A stretch of DNA of 64,000 bases, from positions 18,352,001 through 18,416,000 of the forward strand of contig NC_043006.1 of assembly GCF_006345805.1 (NCBI RefSeq). Direction: 5' to 3'. The notes beneath the pieces were generated by a model, which was not told the origin of the DNA, did no database searches, and saw only the letters and a list, made by a program, of their open reading frames with translations. Shown here piece by piece: positions 848 to 28,639 of the stretch. Origin of the DNA: Octopus sinensis. Lineage: Eukaryota. Each line of letters begins with the position of its first letter. Position 1 is the first letter of the stretch. A program made the position numbers and the translations under genes.

Positions 848-872
848 TTCCTTAACTAATTGTCTGTTCCAC
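848..872 (+). promoter_or_regulatory. 3' end of a U12-type (AT-AC) intron: branch site and AC acceptor
   Basis: Perfect TTCCTTAAC with branch A 17 nt upstream of the terminal AC and no AG that would give this exon start. The matching donor lies upstream of the window. Confidence 0.8.
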
Positions 873-998
873 ATATGAGGAAAGTGAGAAAAACCTTCTG
901 AAAGCAGAATGTTTTCTCGAAAATTTGAAGAAATTACCGTCTTCAGATTCAAAGCTTGTTCAGATGTGGGCCATTAAACTGACTCTTGATTTTGCACA
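873..998 (+). CDS. TTC23: Internal coding exon A of a TTC23-like tetratricopeptide repeat protein (phase 2 to phase 2)
   Basis: 126-nt exon reading (x)YEESEKNLLKAECFLENLKKLPSSDSKLVQMWAIKLTLDFA(Q). Preceded by U12 branch site TTCCTTAAC (848-856) and an AC acceptor (871-872), followed by a GTAAGT donor at 999. Resembles human TTC23 FKEAAENLTKAE...RLSFAQ as recalled from memory; no search was run. Confidence 0.85.
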
Positions 999-1120
999 GT
1001 AAGTAATTTCTTTTCACTGTTTTGTCATCTTATTTCTGTTTCTGTGTCACTGTGGGCCTCTTTCTTGCAATGATTGTCCTCAAATATCAACCTCCTCAGT
1101 GTGAAATGTGTGTGCATCTA

Positions 1121-1810
1121 TGTGTGTGTGTGTGTGTGTTTGCCTGTACATTTGTATACATGACTATCTGTGTGTATCTATCATCATCATCATCATCATT
1201 TAGCGTCCGCTAGCATGGGTTGGACGGTTAAACTGGGGTCTGTGAAGCCGGAAGGCTTCATCAGGCCCAGTCAGACCTGGCAGTGTTTCTACGGCTGGAT
1301 GCCCTTCCTAACGCCAACCACTCCGTGAGTGTAGTGGGTGCTTTTACGTGCCACCCGCACAGGTGCCAGACAGAGCTGGCAAACGGCCACGAACGGATGG
1401 TGCTTTTACGTGCCACCGGCAGTTTTAGATGCTATATACATGGTTTTTGTGTGTGTGTGTGGTGTGTGTGTGTGTTTGCCTGTACATTTGTATACATGAC
1501 TATCTGTGTGTATCTATCATCATCATCATCATCATTTAGCGTCCGCTAGCATGGGTTGGACGGTTAAACTGGGGTCTGTGAAGCCGGAAGGCTTCATCAG
1601 GCCCAGTCAGACCTGGCAGTGTTTCTACGGCTGGATGCCCTTCCTAACGCCAACCACTCCGTGAGTGTAGTGGGTGCTTTTTACGTGCCACCCGCACAGG
1701 TGCCAGACAGAGCTGGCAAACGGCCACGAACGGATGGTGCTTTTACGTGCCACCGGCAGTTTTAGATGCTATATACATGGTTTTTGTGTGTGTGTGTGTG
1801 TGTGTGTGTG
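1121..1810. repeat. Tandem duplication of a ~336-bp unit containing a (GAT)n-tailed retroposon (- strand)
   Basis: Sequence at 1139 recurs at 1475, including unique flanks. Units are bounded by (GT)n and are near-identical. Confidence 0.9.
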
Positions 1811-2191
1811 CATTTGTACACATGAGTGCACGCAGGGTAGTTTCATCACTCTGTGTGCATCTGAAGTAAGTTTGGCTGCCAGCACTTTTGTGCATGTAGG
1901 CTTTCTCCCAAGCTGACAATGACCTCTCTCTTTGAAGCCTTGCCAGATCAAACAATTTTAAAAGACGTCTCTGATCCGAAAATCTTTCAGAAAAGAACAC
2001 TCTGAATATACCTATTGACACCCAGAATCATTCCCAGTCTATTGTTACTCATACTTTCCAATGTCTACTTTTAGAATGGGATTATTGATGTTCCAGTGAC
2101 TACATTGTCCAACTGGATACAGTTTTACATGCTAAATGTGCAACCTTGGCCTGTGTTTGTCCAAGGCCTGCAGCTAGTTAAAGAAAATGAA

Positions 2192-2458
2192 CTCGCCTGG
2201 CCCCGTGCCGGTGGCACGTAAAAAGCACCATCCGTCCGTGGCCGTTTGCCAGCTCCATCTGGCACCTGTGCGGGTGGCACGTAAAAAGCACCCACTACAC
2301 TCACGGAGTGGTTGGCGTTAGGAAGGGCATCCAGCAGTAGAAACACTGCCAGATCAGACTGGGCCTGATGCAGCCTTCTGGCTTCACAGACCCCAGTTGA
2401 ACCGTCCAACCCATGCTAGCATGGAAAGCGGACGCTAAATGATGATGATGATGATGAT
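2192..2458 (+). mobile_element. (GAT)n-tailed short retroposon (RTE-like 3' end)
   Basis: Conserved GGTTGGCGTTAGGAAGGGCATCCAG...CCCATGCTAGCATGGA...(GAT)n block found more than 12 times in the window. Confidence 0.85.
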
Positions 2459-2729
2459 AAATGACAACTTTGCTGTTCCTGTCATTTGTCATGAATCTTT
2501 GCAGCTGTCACAACTTTAGCATGCGCCTGTATATCATCAGTCACGGTACCCCTTAAACCCCACTAGAATAATTGTTGGAAATGAAATAAAAGAGTATTCG
2601 CTCTTATCCTGTCAGATGTTTCCTGAGACACGATGCAATGATCAGGTGTTAGCATAGCTCTGAGATAATCCAGTAACAGCTTGTCTTTCTAAAGGCCAAC
2701 ACAATGGCTATGTGTATCCAAGATCCCAT

Positions 2730-3078
2730 TCATCATCATCATCATCATCATCATCGTTTAACGTCCGTTTTTCGCGCTAGCACGGGTTGGACGGTTCGAC
2801 CAGGGTCTGGGAAGCCAGGGGCTGCTCCAGGCTCCAGTCTGATCTGGCAGAGTTTCTACAGCTGGATGTCCTTCCTAACGCCAACCACTCCGCGAGTGTA
2901 GTGGGTTCATTTTTACGTGCCACCTGCACAGGTGCCAGGTGGGGTCTGGCATCGGCCATGATCGGTTGGAGCTTTTAACGTGCCAGTGGCATGAAAGCCA
3001 GCCAAGGCGGCGCTGGCAACGTTCGGATGGTGCTTTTTATGTGCCACCGGCACAGAAGCCAGTCGGGGTGGCGCTGGC
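2730..3078 (-). mobile_element. (GAT)n-tailed short retroposon
   Basis: Same family, reverse orientation, (CAT)n at the left end. Confidence 0.85.
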
Positions 3079-3089
3079 ATTCCAGTTGC

Positions 3090-5250
3090 AAATTAACACT
3101 GATGTGTGAGCTGTTCCTTGAAATGTCTCCATACATCTGAAAGAATCTGTCTTCCAACTCTTGTCAAGTGCAAACAGTTATGAACACAAAAGCCTCATTT
3201 CCCTCTTTGCTGTTCACCTCTTTGAGGACCACCTAGATATCATCTGAATCTAGGAATATCATGCTTACTTTTAGATTCAAGTATTTCCAGGAGAATACTC
3301 CCTTACTACTCGATCCAGCTGACTGAATGATGTATAAACCATTTAGTTATCCGATAGGTAGCCTTTTACTTTTACCACTGAACTGGTGCCACGGTGCATT
3401 GAAGCAATCCAGCCTCTGAAAACAAGTCCAAGACCACTTGCTGTCAGGACAGCTTCCAAGTGGCGATGGTTAACACCCCTCGAATGCCTTTGATCAATCC
3501 AAATTGATTAGAGCACCACCGAAGACAGCTTTGGTGGTGGTTGTCATGGATAAACCTGCTTGAGATTGTGCACATTTACGCATCTCCAACCAGGCTACTG
3601 ATGACAAGCGGCAGCCTTTTAACTAACACTTTGGCCAAAATCTTAAACTTAGTGTTTCACTGAGTTATGGGATGAAAATTCTTTAGTACGTCTCCATTGT
3701 TGGTGTCTTTCTTCAGTAGTGTAACCACACATCTACTAACAGCACTAGGCATCTGTCAAGAGGTTGCCAAACAAATCTGGCATGAATACATAGAATTCAT
3801 AGGGTAGACCATCTAAAACAGGCGATCTGTGACTTGTGCAATTGCCTCCCAAATTTCAGCGGCTGTTATAGGCTTTTCATACAACCTCATGTCAGCTTCT
3901 GAGAGCTGCAGCAAGCCCTCCAGATACAAACTAAAGTCCAATACCGTCATTAACCCATCACCCTCTCCAAACAGCTGCAGTAAAGCCACACACATCTGCT
4001 TAGTAGCAAGCGCCAATCCTGATCCATCAAAGATTTGATCGTGATTTTGCTTCCATGTCACATCTCCACTGTTTGGGCCCATTGGACAGCTTTAGTGCCT
4101 TTCTGTTTGAGTACATGGGCCTTAGCTCTAACAATGCAACTGTTATGTTTTGCTTTGAAGAAATGGTCAAGGGTCATTCTTGCTGCTAACCCAGCAGTGG
4201 CAATACCCTTTTTAATTGCCTCTTCTAATTTGCTTACTAGTTCACCCTCTAATCTATTCCTTTCTATTGCTAACTCTTTGCTAAACGCTATCAATTCTGC
4301 TCTAATTACCCTCTTCAGGGCAGCCCACCACTGGTTGTTGACAATTTCCCCCATCAACTGTCACTAAACTAGTCACGAATCCGGTCCCTCTAGTCTTTGC
4401 GTGCTGGAAAGAACATGTTTAACTTCCAGTTACCAGGTCCCTATATAACTTAACTGTGCAGATCATAAACTTGTGGTCAGTGTAGCCGACCAATTTAAAT
4501 TGTGGACAACCTACACTATCCCTATCCTCTGATCTAACAAATACTCTATCTAGATACAATCAGGATGACCCATTGTGGTTGCTCCATGTCCACACTGGCA
4601 TATAAAGGAAATTCAATCGATATGTATCAAACAATTGGAAGACTCTGAGTAGGTTTTCGAGGCTTTTGCATCTCCTTCTTCTGTGTACTAGTCCCACAGA
4701 GTCCTTCTGCGCATCCAAAATCCCATTCCTGTCCCCTACTAGAACTAAACTGCAAGATGTTCCTGGGAATGTTTCTAGACACCTGAAGAATTCTAGCCTT
4801 CCAGCCCCTGTCAGTGCATAGATGACCATCAGTCTAAAGGCACCACCTTCACTACATCTAGGACCACCAACCTGCCACCCAGGTCCAAGAAGATTGCCTT
4901 TACTTCAAGATCTAAGGATTTTTGGAATAGTACTGCTACTCTGTTGCCCACTTCCAACAGACCCCATGATGAGAATATCTCATAGTTACTGAAAATGGGT
5001 GCTAGTGCTTGCACATTAGAAATCCTTGTCTTACTAATTGTAGCCACATCTAAATTGAGTGGCCTGAGGTTGTTTAGCAAGTGACCTAGCTTCCAGGCTG
5101 ACCCCAGGCCATGAACATTCTCACACCCACTCTGAAAACGACCATGTTTATTGGAGAAACAAAATGGAAAGAGATCCCTTACCTTGGATTTTTGAGAGGG
5201 TCAGCTGCTTCAGCTGCTTTGTCTGACACATCTGAATCAGCCACACCATT
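3090..5250 (-). mobile_element. Decayed Tx1/L1-clade LINE (APE endonuclease and RT remnants)
   Basis: Minus-strand motifs ENVHGL, VLVGDRN, YLDRVF and TDHKF (APE), and VTLLKK...HPITQ*NTKFKILAKVL and LD*SKAF (RT). Many stops and frameshifts. Confidence 0.8.
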
Positions 5251-5314
5251 GTATCACTTTAGTAGTAGTAGTAACAACAACAACAACAACAACAATAATG
5301 ATAATAATAACAGA

Positions 5315-5801
5315 ATTCTCTGATGCAGTACCAGGTACTAGCTCACATGGCTTTTGATCTTAACTAGAAGTGTTATCATGTACATTGTTTTGTCTTGGCA
5401 TAAAAGATGCGCTACAGCAAATATTTGGCTCAATACCACAGATTTGCTTGTCAGTTGTTTGACTTTAACCAGTTGAGCATGTCCCTTAGTGGCTGACGAT
5501 ATGTTCATCTCTGATCATGAGCAGAAGTAGTTGGGGAGCATCGTAGCCATGTGTTGAGAGGGATTCTTTGGGGTTTGAATAGTTCACCTCTGGAAACATG
5601 GATGGTTTGTTCATCATCCTTAAAACAACCATTATTCAGGGACGTTTTGAGTGGGATGGGCTACTTGTCTTGAAGAAAATTTTAACTGGGCCCCACTTGC
5701 AAGGTCATGCGCTGTTTATTTGGATATGAGATCACCATGTCACACACATATGATTGTGATGCATGTGCCTGGTGTACCCCTTTCAGATGGGTAGTTATGA
5801 T
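5315..5801 (+). mobile_element. Non-coding element of an (AAT)n-associated family, 3'-truncated copy
   Basis: Highly similar to 6724-7280 and preceded by an (AAC/AAT)n tract. Confidence 0.75.
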
Positions 5802-5861
5802 GGCGATCTGTGACTTGTGCAATTACCTCCCAAACAACAACAATCATCCTTTCTACTAAAG

Positions 5862-6074
5862 GTACTCTCTTTACTCTTTTACTTGTTTCAGTCATTTGAC
5901 TGCAGCCATGCTGGAGCACTGCCTTTAGTTGAGCAAATCGACCCCGGGACTTATTCTTTGTAAGCCCAGTACTTATTCTATCGGTCTCTTTTGCCGAACC
6001 GCTAAGTGACGGGGACGTACACACACCAGCATCGGTTGTCAAGCAATGCTAGGGGGACAAACACAGACACACAA

Positions 6075-6122
<48 letters not shown>

Positions 6123-6277
6123 CAGGCTTCTTTCAGTTTCCGTCTACCAAATCCACTCACAAGGCATTGGTCGGCCCGGGGCTATAGCAGAAGACACTTG
6201 CCCAAGATGCCATGCAGTGGGACTGAACCTGGAACCATGTGGTTGGTTAGCAAGCTACTTACCACACAGCCACTCCT
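5862..6277 (-). mobile_element. tRNA-head SINE family A
   Basis: Head GGAGTGGCTGTGTGGTAAG...GGTTCAGTCCC (A/B-box-like), internal (TA)n/(TG)n, (AAAGAGT)n tail. More than 10 copies in the window. Confidence 0.9.
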
Positions 6278-6279
6278 GA

Positions 6280-6655
6280 AATTTTGGAGGGAGGGTGACA
6301 GTTGATTACACCCACCAGTGCTCAACTGGTACTTTTTTATTGACCTTGAAAGTATGAAAAGCAAAGTAGATGTCCGTGGAATTTGAACTCAGAACATTAG
6401 GATGGACAAATTGCCACAAAGCATTTTGCTTGGTGTCTTATAATTTCTAATTTTTGTTCAAGGCCAGCAGTTTTGGGGTAGGGGTTCAATTGAGGTTGAT
6501 GTAATCAACTTCAATTCTCAACTGGTACTTATTTTATCAACCCCAAAAGGATGAAAGGCAAGGTCGACCCCAGTGACATTTGAACTCAGAACATGATGGG
6601 TGAAATGCCAGAAAACATTTTGACCAGCAGGCTGATGATTCTGCCAGCTCTTCAT
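6280..6655 (-). mobile_element. Two decayed SINE family C copies
   Basis: Reverse complement of the core GAGTTCAAAT...GCCTTTCATCCTTT.GGGGT.GATAAAATAAGTACCAG. Confidence 0.7.
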
Positions 6656-6723
6656 CTTGATAATAATAATAATAATAATAATAATATAATAATAATAATA
6701 ATATAATAATAATAATAATAATA

Positions 6724-7280
6724 AATGCCCTGATGCAGTACCAGGCAGTGACTCTCATGGCTTCTGATCTTAACTGATTGGAAGTGTTATCATGTACATT
6801 GTTTTGTCTTGGTATAAAAGATGGGCTACAGCAAATATTCTGCTCAATACCACAGATTTGCTTGTCAGTTGTTTGACCTTAACAAGTTGAGCATGTCCCT
6901 TAGTGGCTGACGATATGTGCATCTCTGATCACGAGCAGAAGTAGTGGGGGAGCATCATAGCCATGTGTTGAGAGGGATTCTTTGGGGTTTGAATAGTTCA
7001 CCTCTGGAAACATGGGTGGTTCTTTCAACATCCTTAAACAACCCTTATTCAGGGACCATTTGAGCGGGATGGGCTACTCAACCTGAAGAAAATTCTAACT
7101 GGGCCCCACCTGCAAGGTCATGTGCTGTTTATCTTGATATGAGATCACCATGTCGCGCACATATGGTTGTGATGCATGTGCCTGGTGTACCTTTATCAGA
7201 CGGGTAGTCATGATGGGTATATTGGGCTTCGTATATTTTACCCCAGTGTCACTTTGATGGCATGAACTGCTCTCTCACTC
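6724..7280 (+). mobile_element. Non-coding ~560-bp element embedded in (AAT)n
   Basis: Flanked on both sides by (AAT)n, second copy at 5315-5801, no ORF. Confidence 0.8.
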
Positions 7281-7304
7281 AATAATAATAATAATAATAA
7301 TAAT

Positions 7305-7710
7305 ACTTTCTACTAAAATTTGGGGAAAGCGGACTAGTTGAATGCATCAACCCGAGTGTTTCACTGGTACTTCATTTATTGATCCCAAAAAGATGAAAGG
7401 CAAAGTTGACCTCGGCAGAATTTGAACTCAGAATGTAGCACACTGCTAAGCATTTTGCCCTGTGTGCTAACAATTCTGCCAGCTTACCATCTTATAATTT
7501 CAAATTTTGGCACAAGGCCAATAGTTTTGGGGGAAGTATTAAGTCGATTACATTGACCCCAGTGCTCAACTGGTACTTATTTTATTGACCCCCAAAAGGA
7601 TGAAAAGCAAAGTCAACCCTGGCGACATTTGAACTCAGAAGTTGAAGAAGATGGATGAAATACCACTAGGCATTTTGCCCAGCATACTAATGATTCTTCC
7701 AGCTCGCTAC
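7305..7710 (-). mobile_element. Two decayed SINE family C copies
   Basis: Same conserved core as the other family C copies. Confidence 0.7.
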
Positions 7711-7711
7711 T

Positions 7712-7715
7712 TTGA

Positions 7716-7747
<32 letters not shown>

Positions 7748-7823
7748 ATGGTGGCGGTGGTAGCGGCGGCGGCGGCAGCGACGATGATGACGATGACGAC
7801 GATGATGATGATGGTGATGAAGG

Positions 7824-7861
<38 letters not shown>

Positions 7862-7935
7862 GTGGTGGTGATGATGATGATGATGATGATGATGTTGTTG
7901 TTGTTGTTGCTGTTGCTGTTGTTGTTGTTGTTGTT

Positions 7936-7982
<47 letters not shown>

Positions 7983-7986
7983 TAAT
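7712..7986. repeat. Compound trinucleotide microsatellite (GAT/GGT/GGC/GTT/AAT)
   Basis: Direct inspection. Confidence 0.95.
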
Positions 7987-8393
7987 ATCTGACATTGATA
8001 TATGATCAAAAAGAAATATTAAGAGATAGCGTAAGAGGATGAAGACAGGTCATATATTCAGCTGAATGAACCTGGGTGGGTGTGTAAGCTGGGTGTATGT
8101 ATGTTTTATTTGTATCTGTAGGAAAAATGCCATTTGGATGTGTTGAGATTCCTAATTAATCCAGAGACACTCAACAAAAATAAATATTTCAAGTTTTACT
8201 TCTCACTTACTCACATTTGGCAAACATCATTTACAATAGGAAGTTTTATTGAATTTCTGTTGTTTGTTACCGTTTTATGTTTAACTAAATACTCCGTCAG
8301 TTTTATTTGGCAAATGGTTTAAGAATAGACATCTTTTTTTTGTTTGTTTGTTTATTTGTTTAATGCTTTTTATCTGTATTTCTCTTCTGTCAG

Positions 8394-8520
8394 ACTTTAC
8401 AGCAAACAGAAGAAACAGACAGAGGCTGAAGATTCTTACAAACAAGTTGTCGAACTTATTGAGGCAGCACATGGAGAAGGAAGTCCGCAGTTAATAACGC
8501 TCTATTTAGACTGGGGCAGA
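8394..8520 (+). CDS. TTC23: Internal coding exon B of the TTC23-like gene (phase 2 to phase 0)
   Basis: Pyrimidine tract plus CAG acceptor (8391-8393). Continues the frame from exon A (CA+A=Gln): QLYSKQKKQTEAEDSYKQVVELIEAAHGEGSPQLITLYLDWGR. Ends directly at the U12 donor ATATCCTTTT (8521). TPR-like A..Y...(H)G..SP pattern. Confidence 0.88.
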
Positions 8521-8794
8521 ATATCCTTTTTAAGAAAGAATATACTTTTTAAGAAAGAATATTACCATTATCATTATTATTTCAGAAACATGCACAATAA
8601 AATGTTATGCAAAAGTACACATAGCCCTGCTACTATAGCCTCTTCCACTGGAACTGTTAGATACATAAAATTTGTTTTCATTTCTTGCTTTCATTTTTTT
8701 CCAGGCTGATGGATACAGTTCTTCACTTCTTTTCAGCTATTGATTTTAACATGGAAAAATAGCTGAAAGACTATGCTATATATATATATATATA

Positions 8795-9054
8795 TATATT
8801 ATATTAAATTAGAGATAAAACCACTATTAGGCAAATCAAACAATGAAAAACTTAAGCCAATACATAAAATTAATTAATTTATATTATTTTAAATATATAT
8901 CTAAATTATTAAAAGTTTATTATTATTTATTATCTTTTAATAATTTTGATATATATTTAAAATAATATAAATTAATTAATTTTATGTATTGGCTTAAGTT
9001 TTTCATTGTTTGATTTGCCTAATAGTGGTTTTATCTCTAATTTAATATAATATA
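8795..9054. repeat. Near-perfect inverted repeat (~121-bp arms, 18-nt loop), probable Penelope-type terminus in (TA)n
   Basis: Arms 8795-8915 and 8934-9054 are reverse complements with one mismatch by eye. Related sequence occurs at 47716-47920. Confidence 0.85.
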
Positions 9055-9137
9055 ATATTTTACTATAAAATTGGATTCAATCCTAAATCTGATTTTTCCC
9101 TGTAAGTTTGGATTTATTCCCTAATATTTTATTATTA

Positions 9138-9200
<63 letters not shown>

Positions 9201-9782
9201 CGTACACATGTACACTCATTTGTCTGTCTATCATTGTTTGCTTAACGCCCACTTTTCCATGTTCGCATGGGGTCAGATGAAGTTTATTGAGACAGATTTT
9301 CTTTGGTCCCAATACCTGTCCTCTTGCCAAACTTTGTTTCCAAGCAAAGAAATATTTTCCCATGGCCAGATATGTTTATGCCTGGATATTGGAAATGAAT
9401 TACACTTCCCATATGACAGTGACTTTCATTTACAACTGTAATATCATGTAATATCCAAACAAGGATATCTGAATTGAGCAGTTATACTACAGATTTTAGG
9501 CCCCTATCCATTCACCACTAAGGCCTTATGGTCAAAGAGGACCTAACTCTAATTCCCCCCCCCACAACCATTCTTTCTTTTTTCTGTTTACTTTTTCCTT
9601 TTCCAGTGTTTTCAACTTACCTCCTTTTACATTCACTCCCTTCTTGCCTTTTCTCGTATTTTCTCTTATCCTATCATCCTGTTTTAGCTTGTTATGCCAT
9701 CTGGACAGAACCGGAGGATTTTGTGATGGCACCAGACATGTTATAAAATACTGGCTGAACTGTTTTCATCACATGAATCTAT

Positions 9783-10070
9783 TAAAGGGTAAAGACCCCC
9801 TTCGGTCATGAATGACCATGGGATTGCACCTAGAAAGTTACCCTCCTAGGCACAAGTCCGGGCAAGGTTGTTTATGGAAGACCAGCAGTCGCCCATGCAT
9901 ACCAACCTCCCCTCTTCACGCCACCAGTGTTATCCAAGGGAAAGACAAAGGTCGCAACTCATTTCTACAGCTGAGTGAACTGGAGCAACGTGAAATAAAG
10001 TGCCTTGCTCAAGAACACAACACGCAGCCCGGTCCGGGATTCGAGCTCACAACCTCACGATTGTAAGCTC
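9783..10070 (-). mobile_element. tRNA-head SINE family D (5'-truncated)
   Basis: Minus strand reads GAGCTCGAATCCC (B-box), then GTGTTCTTGAGCAAGGCACTT...CTCAGCTGTAGAAATGAGT, a conserved SINE core-like block. Confidence 0.7.
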
Positions 10071-10259
10071 ACGAATCTATTAGTGGCTCATAAACACATA
10101 CTGTGTTTATTGAATAAGCGATGCAAATATATGCAGCTTCTTAGTTTTTTCCTTTTTTTTCTATTATTCTCTTTAATTTTGTCATCTCCTTCAAACATTC
10201 AAAACCAATAGAAGCAAGCATCTCACTCACACACACACTCACACATACACACATACACG

Positions 10260-10299
<40 letters not shown>

Positions 10300-10339
10300 C
10301 ACACACACACACACAAGTTGACAGTTTGCATAAAAGGAA

Positions 10340-11030: not shown

Positions 11031-11344
11031 AATTTATTCTCAACTACATCCTTAATCTTTATGCTCTGCTGTTCTTCAATATATCAAGTTGTTCCTGAAA
11101 AAAAAAAAAAAAAAAGGAGACGTAAAATGTTGCCACATTTAGCTTCAGCATATTATGTATGCATACATATAAATGCATTACCAGCTGCAAAGTGTCAATT
11201 ACATTGTTTCTCAATATTTATATATCTTCTCCCAGTCTGCCTGCAGGTTCCTGCTTGTCTGCTTGCCTGATCGGCTAACTGCTCTACTGCCCATCAGCCT
11301 GTCCATTTAGTATTGTTCAGCTTAATGTGTATATTACATAATTT

Positions 11345-11371
11345 ATCATCATCATCATCATCATCATCACC

Positions 11372-11428
<57 letters not shown>

Positions 11429-11640: not shown

Positions 11641-11659
11641 ACAAAAATCCTCTTTGAAT

Positions 11660-17552: not shown

Positions 17553-17587
<35 letters not shown>

Positions 17588-17604
17588 GTAATAATAATAA
17601 TAAT

Positions 17605-19937
17605 CATACCACTTTTTTGCTCTGTCAAGTCCATACTTGTTGCAAAGTGTCCAATAGACAATTCTTGCTATATTGTCATGACGTCTCTTATATTCTTTCT
17701 GGGCTACTGGCATACATTGACTGGTAATATACCATACGGTCTCACCATTTTGTCCACAAATTCTGCACTTATCACTTTCTGATGTGTTGCCTATTCTATA
17801 TTTGATGTAATTTGTTCTTAATGCTTTGCTCTTGGGCAGCACAGATTAGAGCCTCTGTTTCTGGTTTTAAATCACTTTTAATCATCCTTAGCCATCGTTT
17901 TTCTCTGTCTGTCTTATCTTCAACATCAGTATGAAATTGTCCATGCATTCTTTTCTTTATCCATCTATTTTCAGTTTCATTCATTCTCAAGTCCTTGTAC
18001 AGTGCTTTATCTTTGCAATCTTTCATCCTACACAAGCCTGACCGCCTTACTTCCAATAATAGTGATTCTGTGGCATTTTTTACATACCACGCTATATTGT
18101 TTTCTTCTGCTCTAATGCTGTGTTCACATCCAGTCAGTCCTCTTCTTCCTCTTTTTCTTGGTACATACAGTCTGTCTGTGTCAGATTTTGGGTGGAGTAC
18201 TCCATATCCGGTCAACAGCTTCCTTGTCTTTCTGTCTAAGCTGTTTAGTTCATCTAGTGTCCATGTGATTACCCCTGCCCCATATCTAAGGAGTGAAACC
18301 ACCCAGGTGTTGATAGCTTCAGTCTTATTCGCCCGCTTAATTTCAACTTAAGGATGAGTCCAAGTCTGCGCAAGTACTCCACCTTAAATTTTTCTGTTAT
18401 TTCTTTCCTCATCAATTTATCTATTCCCTATATCCCCAAGTACTTATAGCCTGTCTCGTCAATCTGCTTCATGACCTTCCCCGACGGTATCACTATCACG
18501 TCGATACATTTGATTTTGCCTCTCTTCAAGACTAACACACCACACTTTTTCAGTCCAAACTCCATACTGATATCAGCACTGAAAGTATACACCGTATCAA
18601 CCAGGGAACTGACTTGGGATTCATCTTTACCATAAAGTTTGTGGTCATCTATGAACAACAAATGGTTGACTTTTTGTTGGTGGCTCTTGAATACATATCC
18701 AGCCTTTGCTTTCTTCAGAATCAATGTTAGTGGTATCATTCATAGTACAAAGATAAGTGGGGATAGGCAGTCCTCTTGAAAAATACCTCTCCTGATTTCT
18801 ATTGTCCCTAAACTTCTTTCATATGCTGTCAGTTCCATCCTGCACTTCACCATACTTATTCCAAGCAATCACTCGTACCTTCCATAATCCAAGAATGTGA
18901 GATCATATTGTATGCCTTACAATAATCAATCCATAACATGACTAAATTTGTTTTCCTCCTCTTCCAGTCTCTAAGTACAGTTTTGTCTACCAGGAGTTGA
19001 TCCTTGGTACCTCTGCACTAATGCTTGCAACCCTTCTGCTCATGTGGTAGGACTCCATTTTTTTCCAGATGTTCATACACTGACTGTGACTATTCCACTC
19101 AATAATTTCCACATAAGTGGCAAACAGGATATCGGCCTGTAATTGTCTACCGTATTGCTTTTTTCGAGTTTTTCAAGCACAGTACTGTCCTACCCAATTT
19201 CAACCACTCTGGTATTACTTGGTCGGTATTTAATAAGGTGGCGAGCTGGCAGAAACGTTAGCATGCTGAGCGAAATGGTTAGCGGTATTTCATCTGCCGA
19301 TACGTTGTGAGTTCAAATTCCGCCGAGGTTGACTTTGCCTTTCATCCTTTCGGGGTCGATAAATTAAGTACCAGTTACACACTGGGGTCGATGTAATCGA
19401 CTTAATACCTATGTCTGTCCTTGTTTGTCCCCTCTGTGTTTAGTCCCTTGTGGGTAATAAAGTAATAGGTATTTAATAAGGTGCTGAGTTTTGGAGGTAT
19501 TCATACATGACATTCACCAAATCTTTTGATCCAGTAGCCTTGAATTCCATCTTGTCCCAGGGCCTTCCAGTTGCCCATTTGTTTGCTGCTTTCTTTTACT
19601 TCCCTACTGAAATGACTCGTTCTGCCTATTTTGGACAGACTACTGTTTGTTTCAGTTCTTGCAACCATTCATCATCCTTCTGTGCTCCTTGTCTTTACTC
19701 CAGATGTCACTCCAAAACCTTTGACTTTCAATGTTATCTGGTATCAACTTTTCATCTGCTCACTCTCCATTTACTTCTTTGTAGAATCTCTTCTGATCTA
19801 CTCTGAATAACCTATTCTGCTGGTATCCTTTCATTCTTTGGTTGTATCTTACCATCTTTGATTTCTTTACAATGAAGCACTGTTTCAGTTCCTCCATTAC
19901 CACTTTCAGGCCCTTTCTTTCAATAGCATACTCCCTG
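17605..19937 (-). mobile_element. R4/Dong-clade LINE, inverted 5' segment (RT and CCHC finger)
   Basis: HLLFIDDHKLY (RT), FGLKKC, YKYLG, ETEALICAAQEQ and CRICGQNGETVWYITSQC...YKRRHDN, all typical of RLE-type R4/Dong ORFs. Decayed. Confidence 0.85.
19241..19467 (+). mobile_element. SINE family C with 16-bp TSD, nested in the Dong LINE
   Basis: TSD GGTATTTAATAAGGTG at 19225-19240 and 19468-19483. Confidence 0.9.
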
Positions 19938-20360
19938 TTTTATGATTCAGTGCAACCATGAAATAGAGAATAGGAAACCAGACATAGTGTTAATTGAGAA
20001 GGAATGCAAATGATGCTGGATCATAGATATAGCTTGCCCAGTTGACAACAAGGTATGCGATAAGGAAGAAAGAAAAGTTGATAGATATAAAAGGTTAGCT
20101 TGAGAGGTTAAGTAATTGTGGTTGCTGAAAAAGGTGGTAGTAGTACGAATAATTGTTGGAACCCTGGGAATAGTGAGTAAAAATCTTGAGAAGTACATGG
20201 AACAAATAGGGGCTGCAATAAGGGTGGAGCACTTGCAGAAAACAGCACTGTATGGAACCACTCAAATACTCCAGATGGTGCTCGTAAAATAAGGGGTGTT
20301 CATTGGCAATGATCAGCTGACACTGTATTACATCTCCAGCATTAGAAACTGTGCAAAGAC
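19938..20360 (+). mobile_element. R4/Dong-clade LINE, 3' segment (RLE nuclease and 3' UTR) ending in (AAT)n
   Basis: FMIQCNHEIENRKPDIVLIEK...IIDIACP...KEERKVDRY...LQKTALYGT, a PD-(D/E)xK restriction-like endonuclease, followed by (AAT)n at 20361-20450. Confidence 0.85.
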
Positions 20361-20390
20361 AATAAAATAATAATAATAACAATCATAATG

Positions 20391-20427
<37 letters not shown>

Positions 20428-20972
20428 TAATAATAATAATAATAATAATAAGTGTTTTTCTCAGCTTCTCTGCCCTAGGCGTACAGAAAACGCTCGGCGA
20501 GAAATAGAAGAAAATTTGAAGAAAGAAGGAAAACCAAAAAAAATAATAATAATATTGTTCATCCGTTGTTGTTGATGACCAAGGACATCACATGAGAGAA
20601 GATGGATGCAACTGGCTGTGGCCAATCAGGCCAATGTGTGCCTATAAGTTTCTGCCACAGGTTAGGCACTAGTGGTCTGCTGGGAATAAAGGCAACGGGT
20701 CTGTTATCATCACCACCACTACCATCATCAACATCATCATCGTCATCATCATGGTACTTTGCAAAAGGATGTCATAGAAGTGGTCCATATACTTGTCTGT
20801 GAGTCCTTGACAGTGGCAATACATGCAAAGAACAGTGTTGCGGTCATGTTGCTTGTGACTTGTGTAGTAGTATGCTGTTTAGTGTGTTTGGTATAGAGTT
20901 AATTCTTGTCATTAACAATTAAATGCTGTCATTTCTATGAACAACGAAGGAAAGATGTTTACAATTTTAAGA

Positions 20973-21209
20973 TTCTTTATTCTTTTATTCTTTTACTTGT
21001 TTCAGTCATTTGACTGTGGCCATGCTGGAGCACCGCCTTTAGTCGAGCAAATCGACCCCAGGACTTATTCTTTGTAAGCCTAGTACTTATTCTATTGGTC
21101 TCTCTTGCCGAACTGCTAAGTGACGGGGATGTAAGCACCACCATTGGTTATCAAGCGATGTTGAGGGGACAAACACAGATACACAAACATATACATACAC
21201 ACACACACG

Positions 21210-21244
<35 letters not shown>

Positions 21245-21403
21245 GACAGGCTTCTTTCAGTTTCTGTCTACCAAATCTACTCAAGGCTTTGGTCAGCCTG
21301 AGGCTATAGTAGAAGACACTTGCCCAAGGTGCCATTAGTGAGATTGAACCCAGAACTATGTGGTTGGTAAGCAAGCTACTTACCACACAGCCACTCCTGC
21401 GCC
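20973..21403 (-). mobile_element. SINE family A
   Basis: Full-length family A sequence. Confidence 0.9.
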
Positions 21404-21602
21404 TATGGATTTGGTATAACAGTAGCTGCTGTCATGTCTTTCTTTGAATTAGCTGGTTCGGATGTATTGCAGTCACCACAACCACCAGCATTGTCATCAT
21501 CCCTGTCATCGTTGACCACTGCCTTGGTGCCACAGCCACCACTCTGGTTTGCTTTCTGGTTCTCTGCTGCTTTTTGCTATCTGCTGGTTAGTAGCTAAAA
21601 TG

Positions 21603-21989
21603 TGGAGGCGCAATGGCCCAGTGGTTAGGGCAGCGGACTCGCGGTCATAGGATCGCGGTTTCGATTCCCAGACCGGGCGTTGTGAGTGTTTATTGAGCGT
21701 AAACACCTAAAGCTCCATGAGTCTCCAGCAGGGGATGGTGGTGAACCCTGCTGTACTCTTTCACCACAACTTTCTCTCACTCTTACTTCCTGTTTCTGTT
21801 GTACCTGTATTTCAAAGGGCCGGCCTTGTCACTCTCTGTGTCACGCTGAATCTCCCCCGAGAACTACGTTAAGGGTACACGTGTCTGTGGAGTGCTCAGC
21901 CACTTACACGTTAATTTCACGAGCAGGCTGTTCCTTTGATTCGGATCAATCGGAACCCTCGTTGTCGTAACCGACGGAGTGCTTCCATC
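21603..21989 (+). mobile_element. SINE family B with 13-bp TSD
   Basis: TSD AGTAGCTAAAATG at 21590-21602 and 21990-22002. Confidence 0.92.
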
Positions 21990-22369
21990 AGTAGCTAAAA
22001 TGCTCTAAATATACAACCAATGTTCTTCTTAGAAAATATACACCAAAGATTTAATCCTGTTTCACCAGATGTTTAAGTGGTTGGTGTTTGATGATGTCAG
22101 CAATATTTGAACAAATTACGTTTCAGTTACTTAGTTTTTTTGTTTTTGTTTTGCATTGGATACAGTGATCCGAGTTTGATTTCTAAATTTTTCTGTGACT
22201 GTCAGATATTTCTGCTACACCAGTCTTAATTTTAATTATTCTGTCACATACTATGATTATCACAATTATATTATCTGTCCATTTCTGTGCCTGCAATATA
22301 ACCAACTTTGCTAATATGTGTGTAGTTCATAGACACCAGTTTAATAAAGTAAAAACATAAAAACCTAAT

Positions 22370-22845
22370 CATCACCACCACCACCACCACCAATATCATC
22401 ATCAGTGTTGTGATGATGATCATCATCATTGTTATGAGGCACATAAAACCTGCATCATCAGTATGGTTACTAGCATCTTTTCCATCATCATCATCACCAT
22501 TATCATCACCACCACTACCATTATCAACATTATCATCGTCATCATCATCACAAATCACCACTACCACCACGACCACGTCATCATTTGCATTATATCATCA
22601 TCATCATTGTCATCGTCATCATCGTCATCATCATCGTCATCGTCATCGTCATCGTCATCATCATCGTCGTCATCGTCATCATCGTCGTCATCGTCATCGT
22701 CGTCGTCATCGTCATCGTCATCGTCATCATCATCATCGTCATCATCACCATCATCATCATAACATCATCATCATCATTACCATCCTCATCACAATCCCCA
22801 CAAACCACTGACACCATCATCATCAATATCATAACCATCATCAAC
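22370..22845. repeat. (CAT/CGT/CAC)n compound microsatellite
   Basis: Direct inspection. Confidence 0.95.
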
Positions 22846-23401
22846 ATACAGCTGGACAAGGTTTCGAACTCTCATTCAATTTTGAGGCCAGTAGTGGTCA
22901 CCTGATTTAGCCACCATCTTCAGTTATTGTCTGCAACATAAAAAAGAAAACAAACTAAAAATATAAAAGACAAAAGAAAAAAAAACCCAAGAAAAATGCA
23001 AGTGTCTTTAGTGATTCCTTCAGTTAATTGGTTAAACAATAATATGTTCATTCTTCCATTCAGGCTTTCTTCAATATTTCTTCAGAATTTTACAATGTTT
23101 CATTCTTTAATTTTGGTATTTAATATTTTTTTTCTTTTCCACTGAACAACCATTAACATCAAAGGAATTCGCCAAACATAAGATAAAATCTTTTTGAGGA
23201 CATCGAATGTTTCTGTAGGATGGCAGACTGTTGTCATCACCAACGCCACCGCATCTTTTTCTCCTCCTCCTCCTCCATCCCCTGCTCTCATCATTGTCAT
23301 CCTTGTGTTCCTACGCTTGTGTCTGTAAGAGGTTACTTTTCTTGTGATGCACTCGGCAGACGAGAAGTACATTTGAGAGCTATAATATATATATATATAT
23401 A

Positions 23402-23634
23402 TGGAGGCGCAATGGCCTAGTGGTTAGGGCAGCAGACTTGCGGTCGGAGGATCGCGGTTTCGATTCCCAGACCGGGCGTTGTGTGTGTTTATTGAGCGAA
23501 AAAAACACCTAAAAGCTCCACGAGGCTCCGGCAGGAGGTGGTGATCCCTGCTGTACTCTTTCACCACTCTAAAGGCGGTGCTCCAGCATGGCCACAGTCA
23601 AATGACTGAAACAAGTACAAGAAAAAAAAAAAAA
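23402..23634 (+). mobile_element. Chimeric SINE: family B head with family A 3' tail
   Basis: Family B sequence to ~23570, then AAGGCGGTGCTCCAGCATGGCCACAGTCAAATGACTGAAACAAGTA of family A and an A-tract. Confidence 0.8.
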
Positions 23635-26600
23635 ATATATATATATAAAAGAAGGAAAATTTAAACAAAGAACATGAAATATGTTTTTAAAACAAGAGAA
23701 TTAATGTTGTTTTTTTTATTAATTACTCGTACATAATTTGAATGGTTGCCTTTCATGAAACTCTGAGTGGCTGAGGAGTGAATCTTTGATATGAAAATAT
23801 GAATTAACTCTTCTACACTTTTGGGTACCATTTTGTCATATGCATTTGTAAACAAATACTCTAACACACACACATGCATTCATGCACACTTGCACACACA
23901 CACAGAACTATTTTACATCTGCTGTTTCTTGAGTTCAGCAGTTTTCCCATCTTCTCATCACTCATCAAGTCTTTTGTTCAGAGCACTCAAAGAAAAGACA
24001 AAAATGTCGTCCATCTTTCTGTGCTGCCAGTCATTGCTTCCTCTCTTCTTGGACCATTTGTTACTGACAGTCATCACTCACTCTTAGCTTTGTCTGTTAT
24101 TATCCACTACTTTCTCACCCAATCATACTCTAACTCCCTTCAGCCACTTATTCTGATTCTGTTTTTCTCATTCTTCTTCTTCTTCTTCTTCTTCTTCTCT
24201 CTCTCTCTCTCTCTCTCTCTTATTCACCTTCTCTGTCATGCTCAGAGCAAATAAACATATCTTACAGTAAGAAGGGCTCTTCACTGTTACTGGGTACAAA
24301 GCAACCCCATTCATGCTAATATGATAAAATGAACCCAGTACACTTTTCAAGGTGGTTGGTGAATGATTAGAGAAAGTGTAAGGTTGAAAAACACCTTTAA
24401 TTTTGTTGAGTACTTGTGAACATTTCTAGTGTTGGTACCATGATCAAATGCATTCAGTATACTCTGCAAAAGGGTTGCCGATAGAATGAGCATTCAGTCA
24501 GAGAAATCAAGCCAAAAATGAATCTTATGGGTGAGATTTGGAATTCTGATTTGATTTGGAGGGCATGGAGAGAGCTGTTGTATTGTACAACCTGCTAGAA
24601 ATACCAACCAAATTTCTCTGGAAACATAGTTCTCCATCTTAAAAAGAGAGACTTATTAGACAGTATAATCCTGAATCACTGTCTCAGAATAAGATGAGAT
24701 ACTCATGACTGGACTAATTTGATCTTAGAATTGGCTGATCAAAACTGACCTTGGGCTAAACAGCAACAATTTATTGACATTATATTTAATCAAAAGAAAT
24801 CAATATTGTTGTTTGTAAGCTCAGGATATACATTTTGCCATTAAAGGCTGTTGGTTAATAGATTTTTAAGTAGGTTTCATTGAAACACTTAACTGTAAAT
24901 AGCTATTTACAATAGCTATTGTGAATAGGTATTGGAAAATGGCAATTATGACTAGCTATTGTGCATTGGCTTTGTTATTTTGAAGCAAATATATTACTTT
25001 ATAGAGATGTGTATGTAAGTAGAAAATATGGTAAACATAAGATAATTAGGTTGAAATTATTCCCAAGATTTTTCAATCATATTCTAATCAAATAAAGGTT
25101 TAGCAATGGAATGCATGGATGCTATGATGGTTTTTGTCGTTGAATTGAACTGAATTCACCACTGAGAATAGTTGAAAGGCAGCAGAATTATGTTCCTGGG
25201 TAATGTTAATTTGTAGTTGATTTGCTTCTTCATATGCATCTATGTATCATTGGTTCCCCCCACATTCCTTATCCACCCTTCATTACATCCACTCCTCAAT
25301 CATACCCAATTTCAACAGATGTCACTTACTCTTCTCTACCTTTCTGACTTATCAACTCTCAGCAGCTGCTCTTCATGATATTCACCTACCTCATCCATTT
25401 CCAGTCTCTAACCATCTCTCACTCCCCCATACACTCTTACATACTCTATCCACCTGCACCCCTTGTTCTCGTGTTCCTACCCATTTTTACTCTCCTGTTA
25501 TCTTGAGGCACCTCACACCTCATCAGTATTTTATCTCTTTCCGGCTCCAACCTCCCTTCGATAATGTGAGAAGTCTCGAGGCCACTTTACAGCAAGAAAT
25601 CTGCTTTGTTCTGGCCCCTTATCTCCTAAAGCCAACCTCCCTTCTTACTGTAGCCCCACTTTTCCAAAGGGAATCTTAGTCTTGCAAGCTGCATGGGTGG
25701 CCTTACTAGTGCTTGTACCATGTAAAAAAAAACACTCAGTACATACTGTAAAATGGATGGTAAATAGGAAGGGCATTTAGGAGTAGAAACTATGCCAAAA
25801 CTGATATTGGAGCATGATGTACTTCTGAGTTGTCAGATCCTGTAAAACCATCCAGTCCATACGAACATGGAATATGGATATTAAATGAGGATGATGTTGA
25901 TGTGGTGGAGCATCAGTTCACAGATAAAAATATGATCACACTGCTGTTGGTGTTTATACTGTCATCTAACCGATACATTCTCACTTCTCAATTCCTCCCT
26001 ATCAATTTTCTTTATAAGTCCACTAGCCTTCATCCTCCATTAACTGCAGTATTTTCTCTGGTATTTGATGATAAGGATGTCTTTTATAAGTGAGCCAGAA
26101 GAGGAAATGTAACACCAACGAAATTTTCAGGCCCTCTTAGTGTGATGTGATCATCACAGTTGATGCCTAGCAGAACAGTCTGCAAGAATACCATAGAACT
26201 GGACTCAGATCTGAACACTTGCAAAGGGAATGAATTCCACCAAAGGTAACTTGTAACTAGCTGCAGCTATTAAACTGGGCAGTATGTTAGAATGATTATG
26301 TTGTTTGTTTAGTTCCAGGCCATTCATGATCATGTGGGTAAGCTGAAGGGGATCATTGTCTTGCAAGGTACTTGGCAACCCCGTTGGTGTTGGTGCCACA
26401 TAAAATGCACTAATGCTAGTATCACATAAAACGCACTGGTGCTGGTACCTCATAAGAAACACCCAGTACACTCTGTAAAGTGGTTGGCATTAGGAAGGGC
26501 ATCCAGCTATAGAAACTATGCCAAAATAGACAATGGAGCCTGCAGCAGCTTCCAGCCCTAACAGCTCCTGCCAATCTGTCCAATCCATGCCATCATGGTA

Positions 26601-27569
26601 AAACAGACATTAAATGATGCTGCTGCTAATGATGATGATTTAAACTACCAGTCTATCATTTCTGCTTCTCACCATATGCTGTTTGTGTTACAACTATATC
26701 ATGGGTATTTATATACACATGCATATATTATCATTTTGTTTGCTTGTTTGAAATTTTGTTGAATAAAAACAACAAAATAAGACGTGAAAGATGAGAATAA
26801 GACAAGGGTAATTGTAAACATATGTCAATACCAACCTCCACAAAAATGCAGACCTCCTTCACTCTTTCACAGTTCCTCAACACATTGCCGTTTCTAAATA
26901 ACTATGAGCTTTATTATTTTATTCTTTTACTGGCTTTATTTAATTTTTTAATATTTTACCTAGAAGGGAAGGCAGTGTCCATGACACTTTGAGGTGAAAA
27001 TAGTGGAAGGAAGGTAAGAGTGTGTACTCAAACCAGGGACCTAACCCTAATGCTCACAACTGTGTGGGATCTGCTAAAAGACACTCCAAGACCAGGTGGT
27101 GGTGATAATAAACATCTACCAACCTGGACTGGAGCCATGCTGGGAAATATTTTCGCAAGTGTTGTCAGTTGCATTGGTCCCATTACTTATGTCTTTGTAA
27201 TTAGTTTCTGGTCAACCTAGGCTGAGCTCACCTATAGTCGAAGACAGTCTAGCCATGGCCATCTCTGTTTATATATCCAGAAGTATATAAAAATCATTCA
27301 TGCGGATGCTGGTGCCATGTAAAAACCACTGGTGCTAGTGCTACTTAAACATTGGTGATGGTGTCACATAAAAAGCACCCAGTACACTATGTGGGGTGGT
27401 TGCCATTAGGAAGGGCATACAACCTTAGAAACCAAGCCAGAACAGACTATGGAACCTGCTGTGGAACCTGGCCTTACCAGTTCCTGTCAAGCCGTCCAAT
27501 CCATGCCAGCATGAAAACAGACATTAAATGATTTTGATGATGAGATAATCAAACTTGTTTTGAACGTTA

Positions 27570-27782
27570 TCTTTTACTCGTCTCAATCACTAGACTGTGG
27601 CCATACTGCAGCACTGCCTTGAATTTTTAGTTGAATGAATCAACCCCAGTGCTTTTTTTTCTTTTTTTAAGAAGTGGTACTTATTCTATCAGTCTCTGTT
27701 GCTGAACTGCTGAGTTATGGTGACACAAACACACCAACACCGGTTGTCATGCAGTGATGGGGGGACAAAGACAAACACAAAG

Positions 27783-27823
<41 letters not shown>

Positions 27824-27995
27824 CATGTATATACATACGAGGAGCTTCTTTCAATTTCCGTCTACCAAATCCACTCACAAGGCTTTGGTTGGCCCAAGGC
27901 TATAGTAGAAGACACTTGTCCAAGGTGCCACACAGTGGGACTGAACCTGGGACCATGTGGTTGGGAAGCAAGCTTCTTACCACACAGCCATGCCT
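27570..27995 (-). mobile_element. SINE family A (older copy)
   Basis: Diverged family A sequence. Confidence 0.8.
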
Positions 27996-28067
27996 ACTGT
28001 AAGCTGTGAAATTTTGCTGTTACTTCTAGCAAACTCAGTCGGTTCTCAACTTATTGCGATGACCATC

Positions 28068-28232
28068 GTTGTGAGTTCAAATTCCGCCGAGGTCGACTTT
28101 GCCTTTCATCCTTTCGGGGTCGATAAATTAAGGACCAGTTACGCACTGGGGTTGATATAATCAACTTAATCTGGTTTGTCTGTCCTCGTTTGTCCCCTCT
28201 GTGTTTAGCCCCTTGTGGGTAGTAAAGAAATA
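28068..28232 (+). mobile_element. 5'-truncated SINE family C with 15-bp TSD
   Basis: TSD GGTTCTCAACTTATT at 28041-28055 and 28233-28247. Confidence 0.85.
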
Positions 28233-28470
28233 GGTTCTCAACTTATTTTATAGACGGGGATCCATAGTTTTTCAAACTGAAAGAAACGGACAGGAATGTG
28301 GATCTTGAAATGGTTTTGAACTGAAGAACTTGAATGTTCTATATCAGCCTCACTACACAAAGCATTTTGTTCGATGCTCACATAATGATGCTACAGTCCA
28401 CACTTATCTATTGTTTATTTTCATTCTTTTCAACTTTGAAAAAAAATTATTCCTTAACAATTGATGCCAC

Positions 28471-28553
28471 TTTGTACAACAGGGTGGTAAGCGTGCCAAT
28501 TTCCATCAGAGCATCAAGCTATTCCAGAAGGCACATTCCATTGCGATTGCCAA
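28471..28553 (+). CDS. TTC23: Internal coding exon C of the TTC23-like gene (phase 0 to phase 2)
   Basis: U12 branch TTCCTTAAC (28450-28458) and AC acceptor (28469-28470). Reads FVQQGGKRANFHQSIKLFQKAHSIAIA in frame with exon B, then a GTATGT donor at 28554. Resembles recalled human TTC23 SINHFLQAHLII. Confidence 0.85.
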
Positions 28554-28639
28554 GTATGTAGATAACAACCCTTCTTCATCTTCAGTATTGCTTTCTCTGT
28601 ACTGCTTTTGTTAATTAAATGGCTTATCAGTTAAGTAGG

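What the first reader, a model, noticed from the sequence alone, without database searches (positions are those of the whole stretch)
848..28560. TTC23-like gene with at least two AT-AC minor-spliceosome introns, missed as a gene by the ORF track
Seen: two perfect U12 branch sites (TTCCTTAAC at 848 and 28450), each followed 13-17 nt later by AC; a perfect U12 donor (ATATCCTTTT at 8521); and three exons that join in one open frame. Established: U12 introns are rare, AT-AC is the less common subtype, and genes with two are unusual. Inference: this is the cephalopod TTC23 ortholog with ancient minor introns (vertebrate TTC23 is recalled as a minor-intron gene, unverified). GT-AG-only annotators would probably mis-model it.
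Basis: partly seen in the sequence, partly recalled or inferred. Interest (0 to 1): 0.75.

Follow-up and report, generated by a model that had tools for sequence, protein, structure and literature searches.

The report
Two ancient minor introns, octopus TTC23
An octopus gene for the cilia-related protein TTC23 has two rare 19-20 kb AT-AC introns that spliced contigs show are cut out exactly and that the minor spliceosome likely removes; one sits at the same codon as a known human minor intron and the other was likely lost or converted in vertebrates, so this is an old, ordinary example of a known intron class in a gene that public annotation already models correctly.

Summary
Observation confirmed. 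The three exons are coding exons 5-7 of a 12-exon gene that translates letter for letter to an existing RefSeq protein (P0002, TTC23-like, 462 aa). Introns 4 (19,192 nt) and 6 (19,950 nt) have ATATCCTTTTTAA donors, TTCCTTAAC branch sites and AC ends; the other nine are GT-AG. Spliced contigs give 8520^28471 exactly in 4 of 4 runs and exon 4^873 in 1 of 3 spliced-type runs (the other two stop short). All four minor snRNAs are in the genome. Intron 4 lies at the same codon and phase as the single catalogued minor intron of human TTC23L (AT-AC) and TTC23 (GT-AG). Intron 6 is absent from the human and mouse catalogues read, but read-through errors in bivalve and hemichordate protein models mark it as likely bilaterian-old. 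GT-AG-biased models do fail here in other species; RefSeq models this one correctly. Genes with two minor introns are a known minority (50 in human). The scan noted similar AT-AC introns in other octopus genes before, none in this gene. Real, old, ordinary: interest 0.2.

The parts
1..872 (+). 3' end of coding intron 4 (AT-AC, U12-type signals, phase 2, 19,192 nt; donor ATATCCTTTTTAA lies 18,319 nt upstream of the window at G000:C10:18333681)
   Evidence: junction in spliced contig of run X15
848..856 (+). U12-type branch site TTCCTTAAC of intron 4 (predicted branch A at 855, 17 nt from the intron end)
   Evidence: unbroken in DNA-type contig X13
871..872 (+). AC acceptor of intron 4
873..998 (+). 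Coding exon 5 (126 nt; aa 192-234 of P0002)
999..8393 (+). Intron 5, ordinary GT-AG (GTAAGT donor, pyrimidine tract), 7,395 nt, phase 2
8394..8520 (+). Coding exon 6 (127 nt; aa 234-276; about one 42-aa TPR unit)
8521..28470 (+). Coding intron 6 (AT-AC, U12-type signals, phase 0, 19,950 nt)
8521..8533 (+). U12-type donor ATATCCTTTTTAA of intron 6
8540..8552 (+). Decayed tandem copy of the donor (ATATACTTTTTAA, 19-nt unit); not used in the contigs laid
28450..28458 (+). U12-type branch site TTCCTTAAC of intron 6 (predicted branch A at 28457, 13 nt from the intron end)
28469..28470 (+). AC acceptor of intron 6
28471..28553 (+). Coding exon 7 (83 nt; aa 277-304)
28554..64000 (+). 5' part of intron 7, GT-AG, 39,745 nt, runs past the window

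Best explanation
This is the middle of a 12-exon octopus TTC23/TTC23L-family gene whose coding introns 4 and 6 have AT-AC ends, are cut out exactly at those ends in spliced contigs, and are likely removed by the minor (U12) spliceosome as old introns, one shared with humans and one likely lost or converted in vertebrates. Mechanism: the U11/U12 di-snRNP would pair with the ATATCCTTTTT donor and the TTCCTTAAC branch site, U6atac would replace U11 at the donor, and the AC 13-17 nt past the branch A is used as acceptor; the other nine introns go through the major spliceosome. Shown: sequences, exact junctions, open frame, snRNA genes in the genome, same codon and phase as human for intron 4. Inferred: dependence on the minor spliceosome; AT-AC as the ancestral state of intron 4 with a switch to GT-AG in TTC23; bilaterian age and vertebrate loss or conversion of intron 6; a ciliary TPR-scaffold role for the protein as in mouse.
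For: 12 exons give P0002 letter for letter, 2 of 11 introns AT-AC with full U12 consensus. Junction 8520^28471 exact and unambiguous in 4 of 4 runs; exon 4^873 in run X15, where only AT-AC of 5 possible registers is a recognised intron boundary. One locus in the genome, so a retrocopy does not explain the joined contigs. U11, U12, U6atac, U4atac found over Rfam cut-off. The two donors pair best of 11 with this genome's U11 (-7.4, -6.9 vs at best -3.6 kcal/mol) and U6atac (-8.1 vs at best -5.1). Human TTC23L AT-AC and TTC23 GT-AG minor introns translate to QN[R]G and LQ[K]F in phase 2, the column of octopus GK[R]Y. Read-through marks: YPF in 4 of 103 rows at the intron-4 column and nowhere else; ISF in 2 of 99 rows at the intron-6 column (bivalve, hemichordate) and once elsewhere.
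Against: No knockdown or lariat data in octopus; U12 dependence rests on consensus and homology. The U12:branch-site duplex test did not discriminate (-8.8 for both, but -9.0 and -7.9 for GT-AG introns 11 and 10). None of the laid runs is on record as RNA, all are contigs that drop rare forms, so retention or cryptic sites cannot be measured. Exon 4^873 rests on 1 run. Intron 6 outside octopus is inferred from errors in protein models, not from DNA; whether vertebrates lost it or converted it to a major intron was not testable. The clade of vertebrate TTC23 plus TTC23L has only 86/62 support.
Confidence: 0.9

Rival explanations
1. The AT-AC introns are major-class (U2-type AT-AC II) introns, or are spliced mainly by the major spliceosome at nearby GT-AG sites.
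For: U2-type AT-AC introns exist (15 in human, PMC1557818 passages). Twenty-six stop-free in-frame GT/AG pairs exist around intron 6.
Against: U2-type AT-AC introns have a U2-like donor beyond the first base; both donors here are ATATCCTTT with a perfect U12 branch site. The GT-AG alternatives would add or delete 14-47 aa, and 4 of 4 contigs use the AT-AC ends. The human and mouse TTC23 intron at the intron-4 position responds to minor-spliceosome inhibition in some of the listed data sets.
Confidence: 0.03
2. Intron 6 is a recent gain in cephalopods or octopuses, perhaps copied from intron 4 (the two share a 13-nt donor and similar 3' ends), rather than an old intron lost in vertebrates.
For: Both donors read ATATCCTTTTTAA and both 3' ends read TTATTCCTTAAC..AATTG..CCAC. 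Human and mouse catalogues list one minor intron per paralog, at the intron-4 position.
Against: Solemya (bivalve) and Saccoglossus (hemichordate) models run on with ISF, the phase-0 translation of ATATCCTTT, at exactly this codon, and a Branchiostoma model breaks at the same residue. Similarity of the two introns is confined to the consensus signals.
Confidence: 0.06
3. The introns persist because slow minor splicing is a selected brake on TTC23 output (for example in ciliated or neural cells), not merely as inherited relics.
For: The minor spliceosome is low in abundance and proposed to be rate-limiting (PMC1557818 section 24). Intron 4 has stayed minor-type in mollusc, lamprey, chimaera and mammal lineages.
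Against: No expression or retention data here. Long minor introns are retained less than short ones in mouse (PMC6717393 passages). Intron 6 is missing from mammalian catalogues. A pan-eukaryote survey argues that neutral processes explain much of minor-intron evolution (PMC10639083 title and passages). This can be true alongside the best explanation.
Confidence: 0.15

Closest known systems
Human TTC23L minor intron (chr5:34863055-34864436, AT-AC, 1,382 nt; mouse 2,213 nt; PMC8280824 and PMC6717393 supplements)
   Same: AT-AC ends, ATATCCTT donor, same codon and phase 2 as octopus intron 4.
   Different: About 14 times shorter; TTC23L lists only this one minor intron.
Human TTC23 minor intron (chr15:99218714-99218897, GT-AG, 184 nt; mouse 203 nt), used as a model minor intron in PMC12332006
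   Same: U12-type, same codon and phase 2 as octopus intron 4; the published primers bracket that site.
   Different: GT-AG subtype with a weaker branch site (TTCCTGAAC); about 100 times shorter.
RefSeq XP_029641422.2 (P0002) and XP_014777218.1 (P0001), octopus TTC23-like proteins
   Same: P0002 is identical to the translation of this gene, both AT-AC junctions included; P0001 aligns to it without gaps over 462 aa.
   Different: The protein records carry no statement about intron class.
Minor-intron genes with two U12 introns (50 human and 50 mouse genes in PMC6717393; 45 and 46 in PMC1557818)
   Same: Two minor introns among many major ones; known clustering above chance.
   Different: Both are AT-AC here, the rarer subtype (about 22% in human); the second is not catalogued in mammals.
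Mouse TTC23, EvC-zone ciliary TPR protein binding IQCE and EFCAB7 (bioRxiv 10.1101/156059)
   Same: Same family, TPR_12/TPR_10 repeats.
   Different: Function in octopus untested; an EVC2-like search of this genome gave nothing and was uninformative.

Membership tests
U12-type (minor) intron, AT-AC subtype | 5' splice site RTATCCTTT at the intron start | tested here: met
   ATATCCTTTTTAA at both donors
U12-type (minor) intron, AT-AC subtype | TTCCTTRAY branch site close to the 3' end | tested here: met
   TTCCTTAAC, branch A 17 and 13 nt from the ends; the optimum quoted in PMC6717393 is 11-13 nt, so intron 4 is slightly long
U12-type (minor) intron, AT-AC subtype | Excised at AT...AC in transcripts | tested here: met
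   Intron 6: 4 of 4 runs; intron 4: 1 of 3 spliced-type runs reach the junction; runs are contigs, RNA status not on record
U12-type (minor) intron, AT-AC subtype | Host genome encodes U11, U12, U4atac, U6atac | tested here: met
   All four over Rfam cut-off
U12-type (minor) intron, AT-AC subtype | Signals complementary to the genome's own minor snRNAs | tested here: inconclusive
   Donors pair best of 11 with U11 and U6atac; branch-site duplex with U12 no better than two GT-AG introns
U12-type (minor) intron, AT-AC subtype | Splicing depends on the minor spliceosome | not testable with these tools
   Needs knockdown; reported only for the mammalian intron at the intron-4 position
U12-type (minor) intron, AT-AC subtype | intronIC/PWM score above threshold | not tested
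   No matrix or intronIC on hand
U2-type AT-AC (AT-AC II) intron | U2-like donor apart from the first base | tested here: not met
   Donors are ATATCCTTT; definition from PMC1557818
TTC23/TTC23L protein family | Best full-length relatives are named TTC23 or TTC23-like, with TPR_12/TPR_10 repeats | tested here: met
TTC23/TTC23L protein family | One-to-one ortholog of vertebrate TTC23 (not TTC23L) | tested here: not met
   Sits in a mollusc clade (97/94) outside both vertebrate paralog clades (100/100 each): co-ortholog
TTC23/TTC23L protein family | EvC-zone localisation and IQCE/EFCAB7 binding | not testable with these tools
   EVC2-like search rang nowhere, controls included

The most novel reading that the evidence does not exclude
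Major intron 5 (phase 2) and minor intron 6 (phase 0) lie 127 nt apart, one 42-aa TPR unit plus 1 nt, in matching register (LDFA[Q]LYSKQ vs LDWGR|FVQQG). They could descend from one U12 intron duplicated with the repeat, one copy having become a major intron through a 1-nt slide. With the AT-AC to GT-AG switch between TTC23L and TTC23 and the vertebrate loss of intron 6, this one gene would record gain by exon duplication, subtype switch, class conversion and loss.
Probability: 0.08. Interest if true: 0.5.

Novelty: new member of a known kind. Interest (0 to 1): 0.2.

Why it matters
Modestly. It polarises a subtype switch: octopus and TTC23L keep AT-AC at a site where TTC23 has GT-AG, so AT-AC is likely ancestral. 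It adds one likely bilaterian minor intron that mammalian catalogues lack. It gives a clean example of how GT-AG-biased gene models leave 'YPF' and 'ISF' read-through scars or drop exons in lamprey, chimaera, argonaut, bivalve, hemichordate and amphioxus entries. It does not change what is known about minor splicing, and a published intronIC survey already covered an octopus RefSeq annotation genome-wide (PMC10639083).

Tried and rejected
Motif counts alone: not above shuffles. U12 branch-site duplex energies: not discriminating. No RNA holder listed on record in the run search; the runs were judged by their spliced contigs. Metagenome scan for genomic copies in other animals: a broad alignment had no usable conserved stretch; a closer one gave 2 loci from 236 candidate stretches, one intronless (L022, probably a transcript or retrocopy) and one ending before intron 4 (L023), neither informative. 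Search of the own genome with camel TTC23L: 0 matches, not found with this query. EVC2-like family: nothing, controls silent too. Supplements of PMC7507305 (4 files) and PMC2831892 (1 file): no TTC23 row; file 13 of PMC8280824 was not searched. Paper searches 'TTC23 + octopus' and 'TTC23L + U12-type': 0 papers each; 'TTC23 + minor intron': 2; 'TTC23 + U12 + intron': 3. Other U12-like donors in the window (17518, 19823, 37500, 60096) have no matching branch site and are taken as chance. Retrocopy as source of the joined contigs: rejected, one locus found. Earlier notes near this place or on this protein: none.
Full report
Observation. Exons 873-998, 8394-8520 and 28471-28553 join in one open frame of three. 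The predicted branch A lies 17 and 13 nt from the intron ends. By count alone the motifs are not remarkable: 15 of 100 shuffles have two or more branch motifs and 35 of 100 two or more donor motifs. Position carries the case: both branch motifs of the window precede real exon starts.

The gene. One exon alone found an octopus protein named tetratricopeptide repeat protein 23 (P0001; 1 hit among 4 candidates, 93% identity). Its cluster has 3 members, among them P0002 (XP_029641422.2, TTC23-like). The window is G000:C10:18352001-18416000. P0001 gave 11 exon matches, all in one 175-kb stretch of that contig; the last exon was found in fetched DNA. Twelve exons over 182,444 nt give 1,389 nt that translate letter for letter to P0002. 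So the gene is already modelled correctly in RefSeq; it escapes an ORF list only because its exons here encode 28-42 aa. Pfam gives TPR_12 and TPR_10; the Atlas's best three clusters are TTC23-like (0.95-0.96). In a tree of 36 proteins the gene lies in a mollusc clade (97/94) apart from the vertebrate TTC23 and TTC23L clades (100/100 each, joined with lamprey at only 86/62), so it is best read as co-ortholog of both.

The introns. Nine of 11 coding introns are GT-AG (1,455-53,822 nt). Intron 4 (19,192 nt, phase 2, in GK[R]Y) and intron 6 (19,950 nt, phase 0, WGR|FVQ) start ATATCCTTTTTAA and end in AC after TTCCTTAAC. Their length is inside the range of the gene's other introns. Laid on exon 6, contigs of 4 of 4 runs (4 studies) cover exactly 8394-8520 and continue with the end of exon 5 and the start of exon 7 (loose ends of 19-255 letters); this junction cannot slide. 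Laid on exon 5, of 3 spliced-type runs one (X15) continues with 30 letters identical to the end of exon 4, one has only 4 letters before 873 and one starts at 888; a DNA-type run covers 740-1070 unbroken and may be the assembly's source. That junction can slide 0-4 nt, and only the 0 register gives a recognised pair, AT-AC. None of these runs is on record as RNA, and contigs cannot show rare forms. U12, U11, U6atac and U4atac are in the genome over Rfam's cut-offs. The two donors pair better than the other nine with this genome's U11 and U6atac; the same test for U12 and the 3' ends did not discriminate.

Human comparison. Supplements list one minor intron each for TTC23 (GT-AG, 184 nt; mouse 203 nt) and TTC23L (AT-AC, 1,382 nt; mouse 2,213 nt) (PMC6717393 supplement rows; PMC8280824 rows; PMC4667643 rows; PMC11347168 rows for TTC23). 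The published exon edges translate to LQ[K]F and QN[R]G in phase 2; in my alignment siamang TTC23 LQ[K]F and camel and elephant TTC23L QN[H]G sit in the column of octopus GK[R]Y. The TTC23 primers of PMC12332006 (passages) translate to ARQILA and SKELLQC, which bracket that column. Octopus intron 4 is thus the same intron position as in both human paralogs. That AT-AC is ancestral and TTC23 switched to GT-AG is an inference from octopus and TTC23L agreeing.

Age of intron 6. I could not read other animals' genomes. Protein models give indirect marks. Reading through a phase-2 RTATCCTTT donor yields YPF; through a phase-0 ATATCCTTT donor, ISF (one search shows ISF here). Of 191 proteins in hand I aligned the 111 under 800 aa (80 left out; rows include redundant cluster members and some unrelated TPR proteins). 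YPF follows the intron-4 column in 4 of 103 rows (argonaut, two lampreys, chimaera: three lineages) and occurs at no other column; ISF follows the intron-6 column in 2 of 99 rows (Solemya, Saccoglossus) and once elsewhere; the looser [IV]S[FL] is common elsewhere (names). Paired models agree: the lamprey RefSeq reads KNLKEA where another model reads KKYPFHC; one Saccoglossus model reads LGRLELS where another stops after LGRISFL; a Branchiostoma draft drops 20 aa starting right after LGR; an oyster draft drops 10 aa across the site. No vertebrate row shows the mark and the mammalian catalogues lack the intron, so it was likely lost or converted; which of the two is open. Phase-0 minor introns are proposed to convert preferentially (PMC10639083 passages).

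How it most likely works. Shown: boundaries, frame, snRNA genes. Inferred from established U12 biology: U11/U12 bind donor and branch site, U6atac takes over the donor, and AC is used 13-17 nt past the branch A, so each transcript needs the minor spliceosome twice. The protein is likely a ciliary TPR scaffold, as mouse TTC23 binds IQCE and EFCAB7 at the EvC zone (10.1101/156059 passages); nothing here tests that in octopus (one search was uninformative). A regulatory role for the introns is possible and untested.

Novelty. Human and mouse each have 50 genes with two minor introns, and about 22-24% of minor introns are AT-AC (PMC6717393 passages); if subtypes were independent, two or three of those human genes would have two AT-AC introns (my arithmetic). 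Clustering is known (PMC1557818 section 24). Molluscs are relatively rich in minor introns and an octopus was among the species analysed genome-wide (PMC10639083 section 24). I found no paper on this gene in octopus; database listings such as IAOD and the FigShare tables of PMC10639083 could not be seen and may already hold both introns. Earlier unreviewed notes of this scan describe similar AT-AC introns in other octopus genes, including a 20.7-kb one; none on this gene. The boldest reading left open is that introns 5 and 6, one TPR unit plus 1 nt apart, are duplicates of one minor intron; intron 5 shows no U12 remnant, and a near match of register among several repeats can be chance.

Verdict. 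Real, expressed in spliced form, old, already annotated at protein level: a new member of a known kind, interest 0.2.

Noticed in passing
window 8518-8560: The intron-6 donor region is a 19-nt tandem unit; the second copy has ATATACTTT (C to A at +5) and would shift the frame if used; 4 of 4 contigs use the first.
   Followed up: partly
G000, 43 places on many contigs (L017, L018 best): 43 U6atac-like copies over the Rfam cut-off among 46 candidates scored, against 2-5 matches for U4atac, U12 and U11; probably retrocopies.
   Followed up: no
L017:1501-1520: The two best U6atac copies have six A's before GGAGAG, giving 8 base pairs with the TCCTTTTT of both donors.
   Followed up: partly
window 998/999 and 8520/8521: Major intron 5 and minor intron 6 are 127 nt apart, one 42-aa TPR unit plus 1 nt, in matching repeat register.
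   Followed up: no
P0003 against P0001, coding exon 10 (outside the window): A related octopus isoform lacks 27 aa at the end of exon 10, consistent with an alternative donor.
   Followed up: no
window 54367-55695: 95-nt minisatellite, 14 copies, 98% matches, inside intron 7.
   Followed up: no
window 1121-1810; 14571-14895; 39098-39276; 53245-53418; also 15785, 21874, 37808, 39971, 52124, 58609: A 336-nt tandem duplication, 63-66-nt arrays, and at least six copies of a dispersed element that contains CCTTAAC and so mimics part of a U12 branch site; probably SINE-type repeats (recalled, not tested).
   Followed up: no
L022:2652-4007: Intronless TTC23-family reading frame in a metagenome contig, 43% identical to the oyster protein; transcript or retrocopy.
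   Followed up: partly
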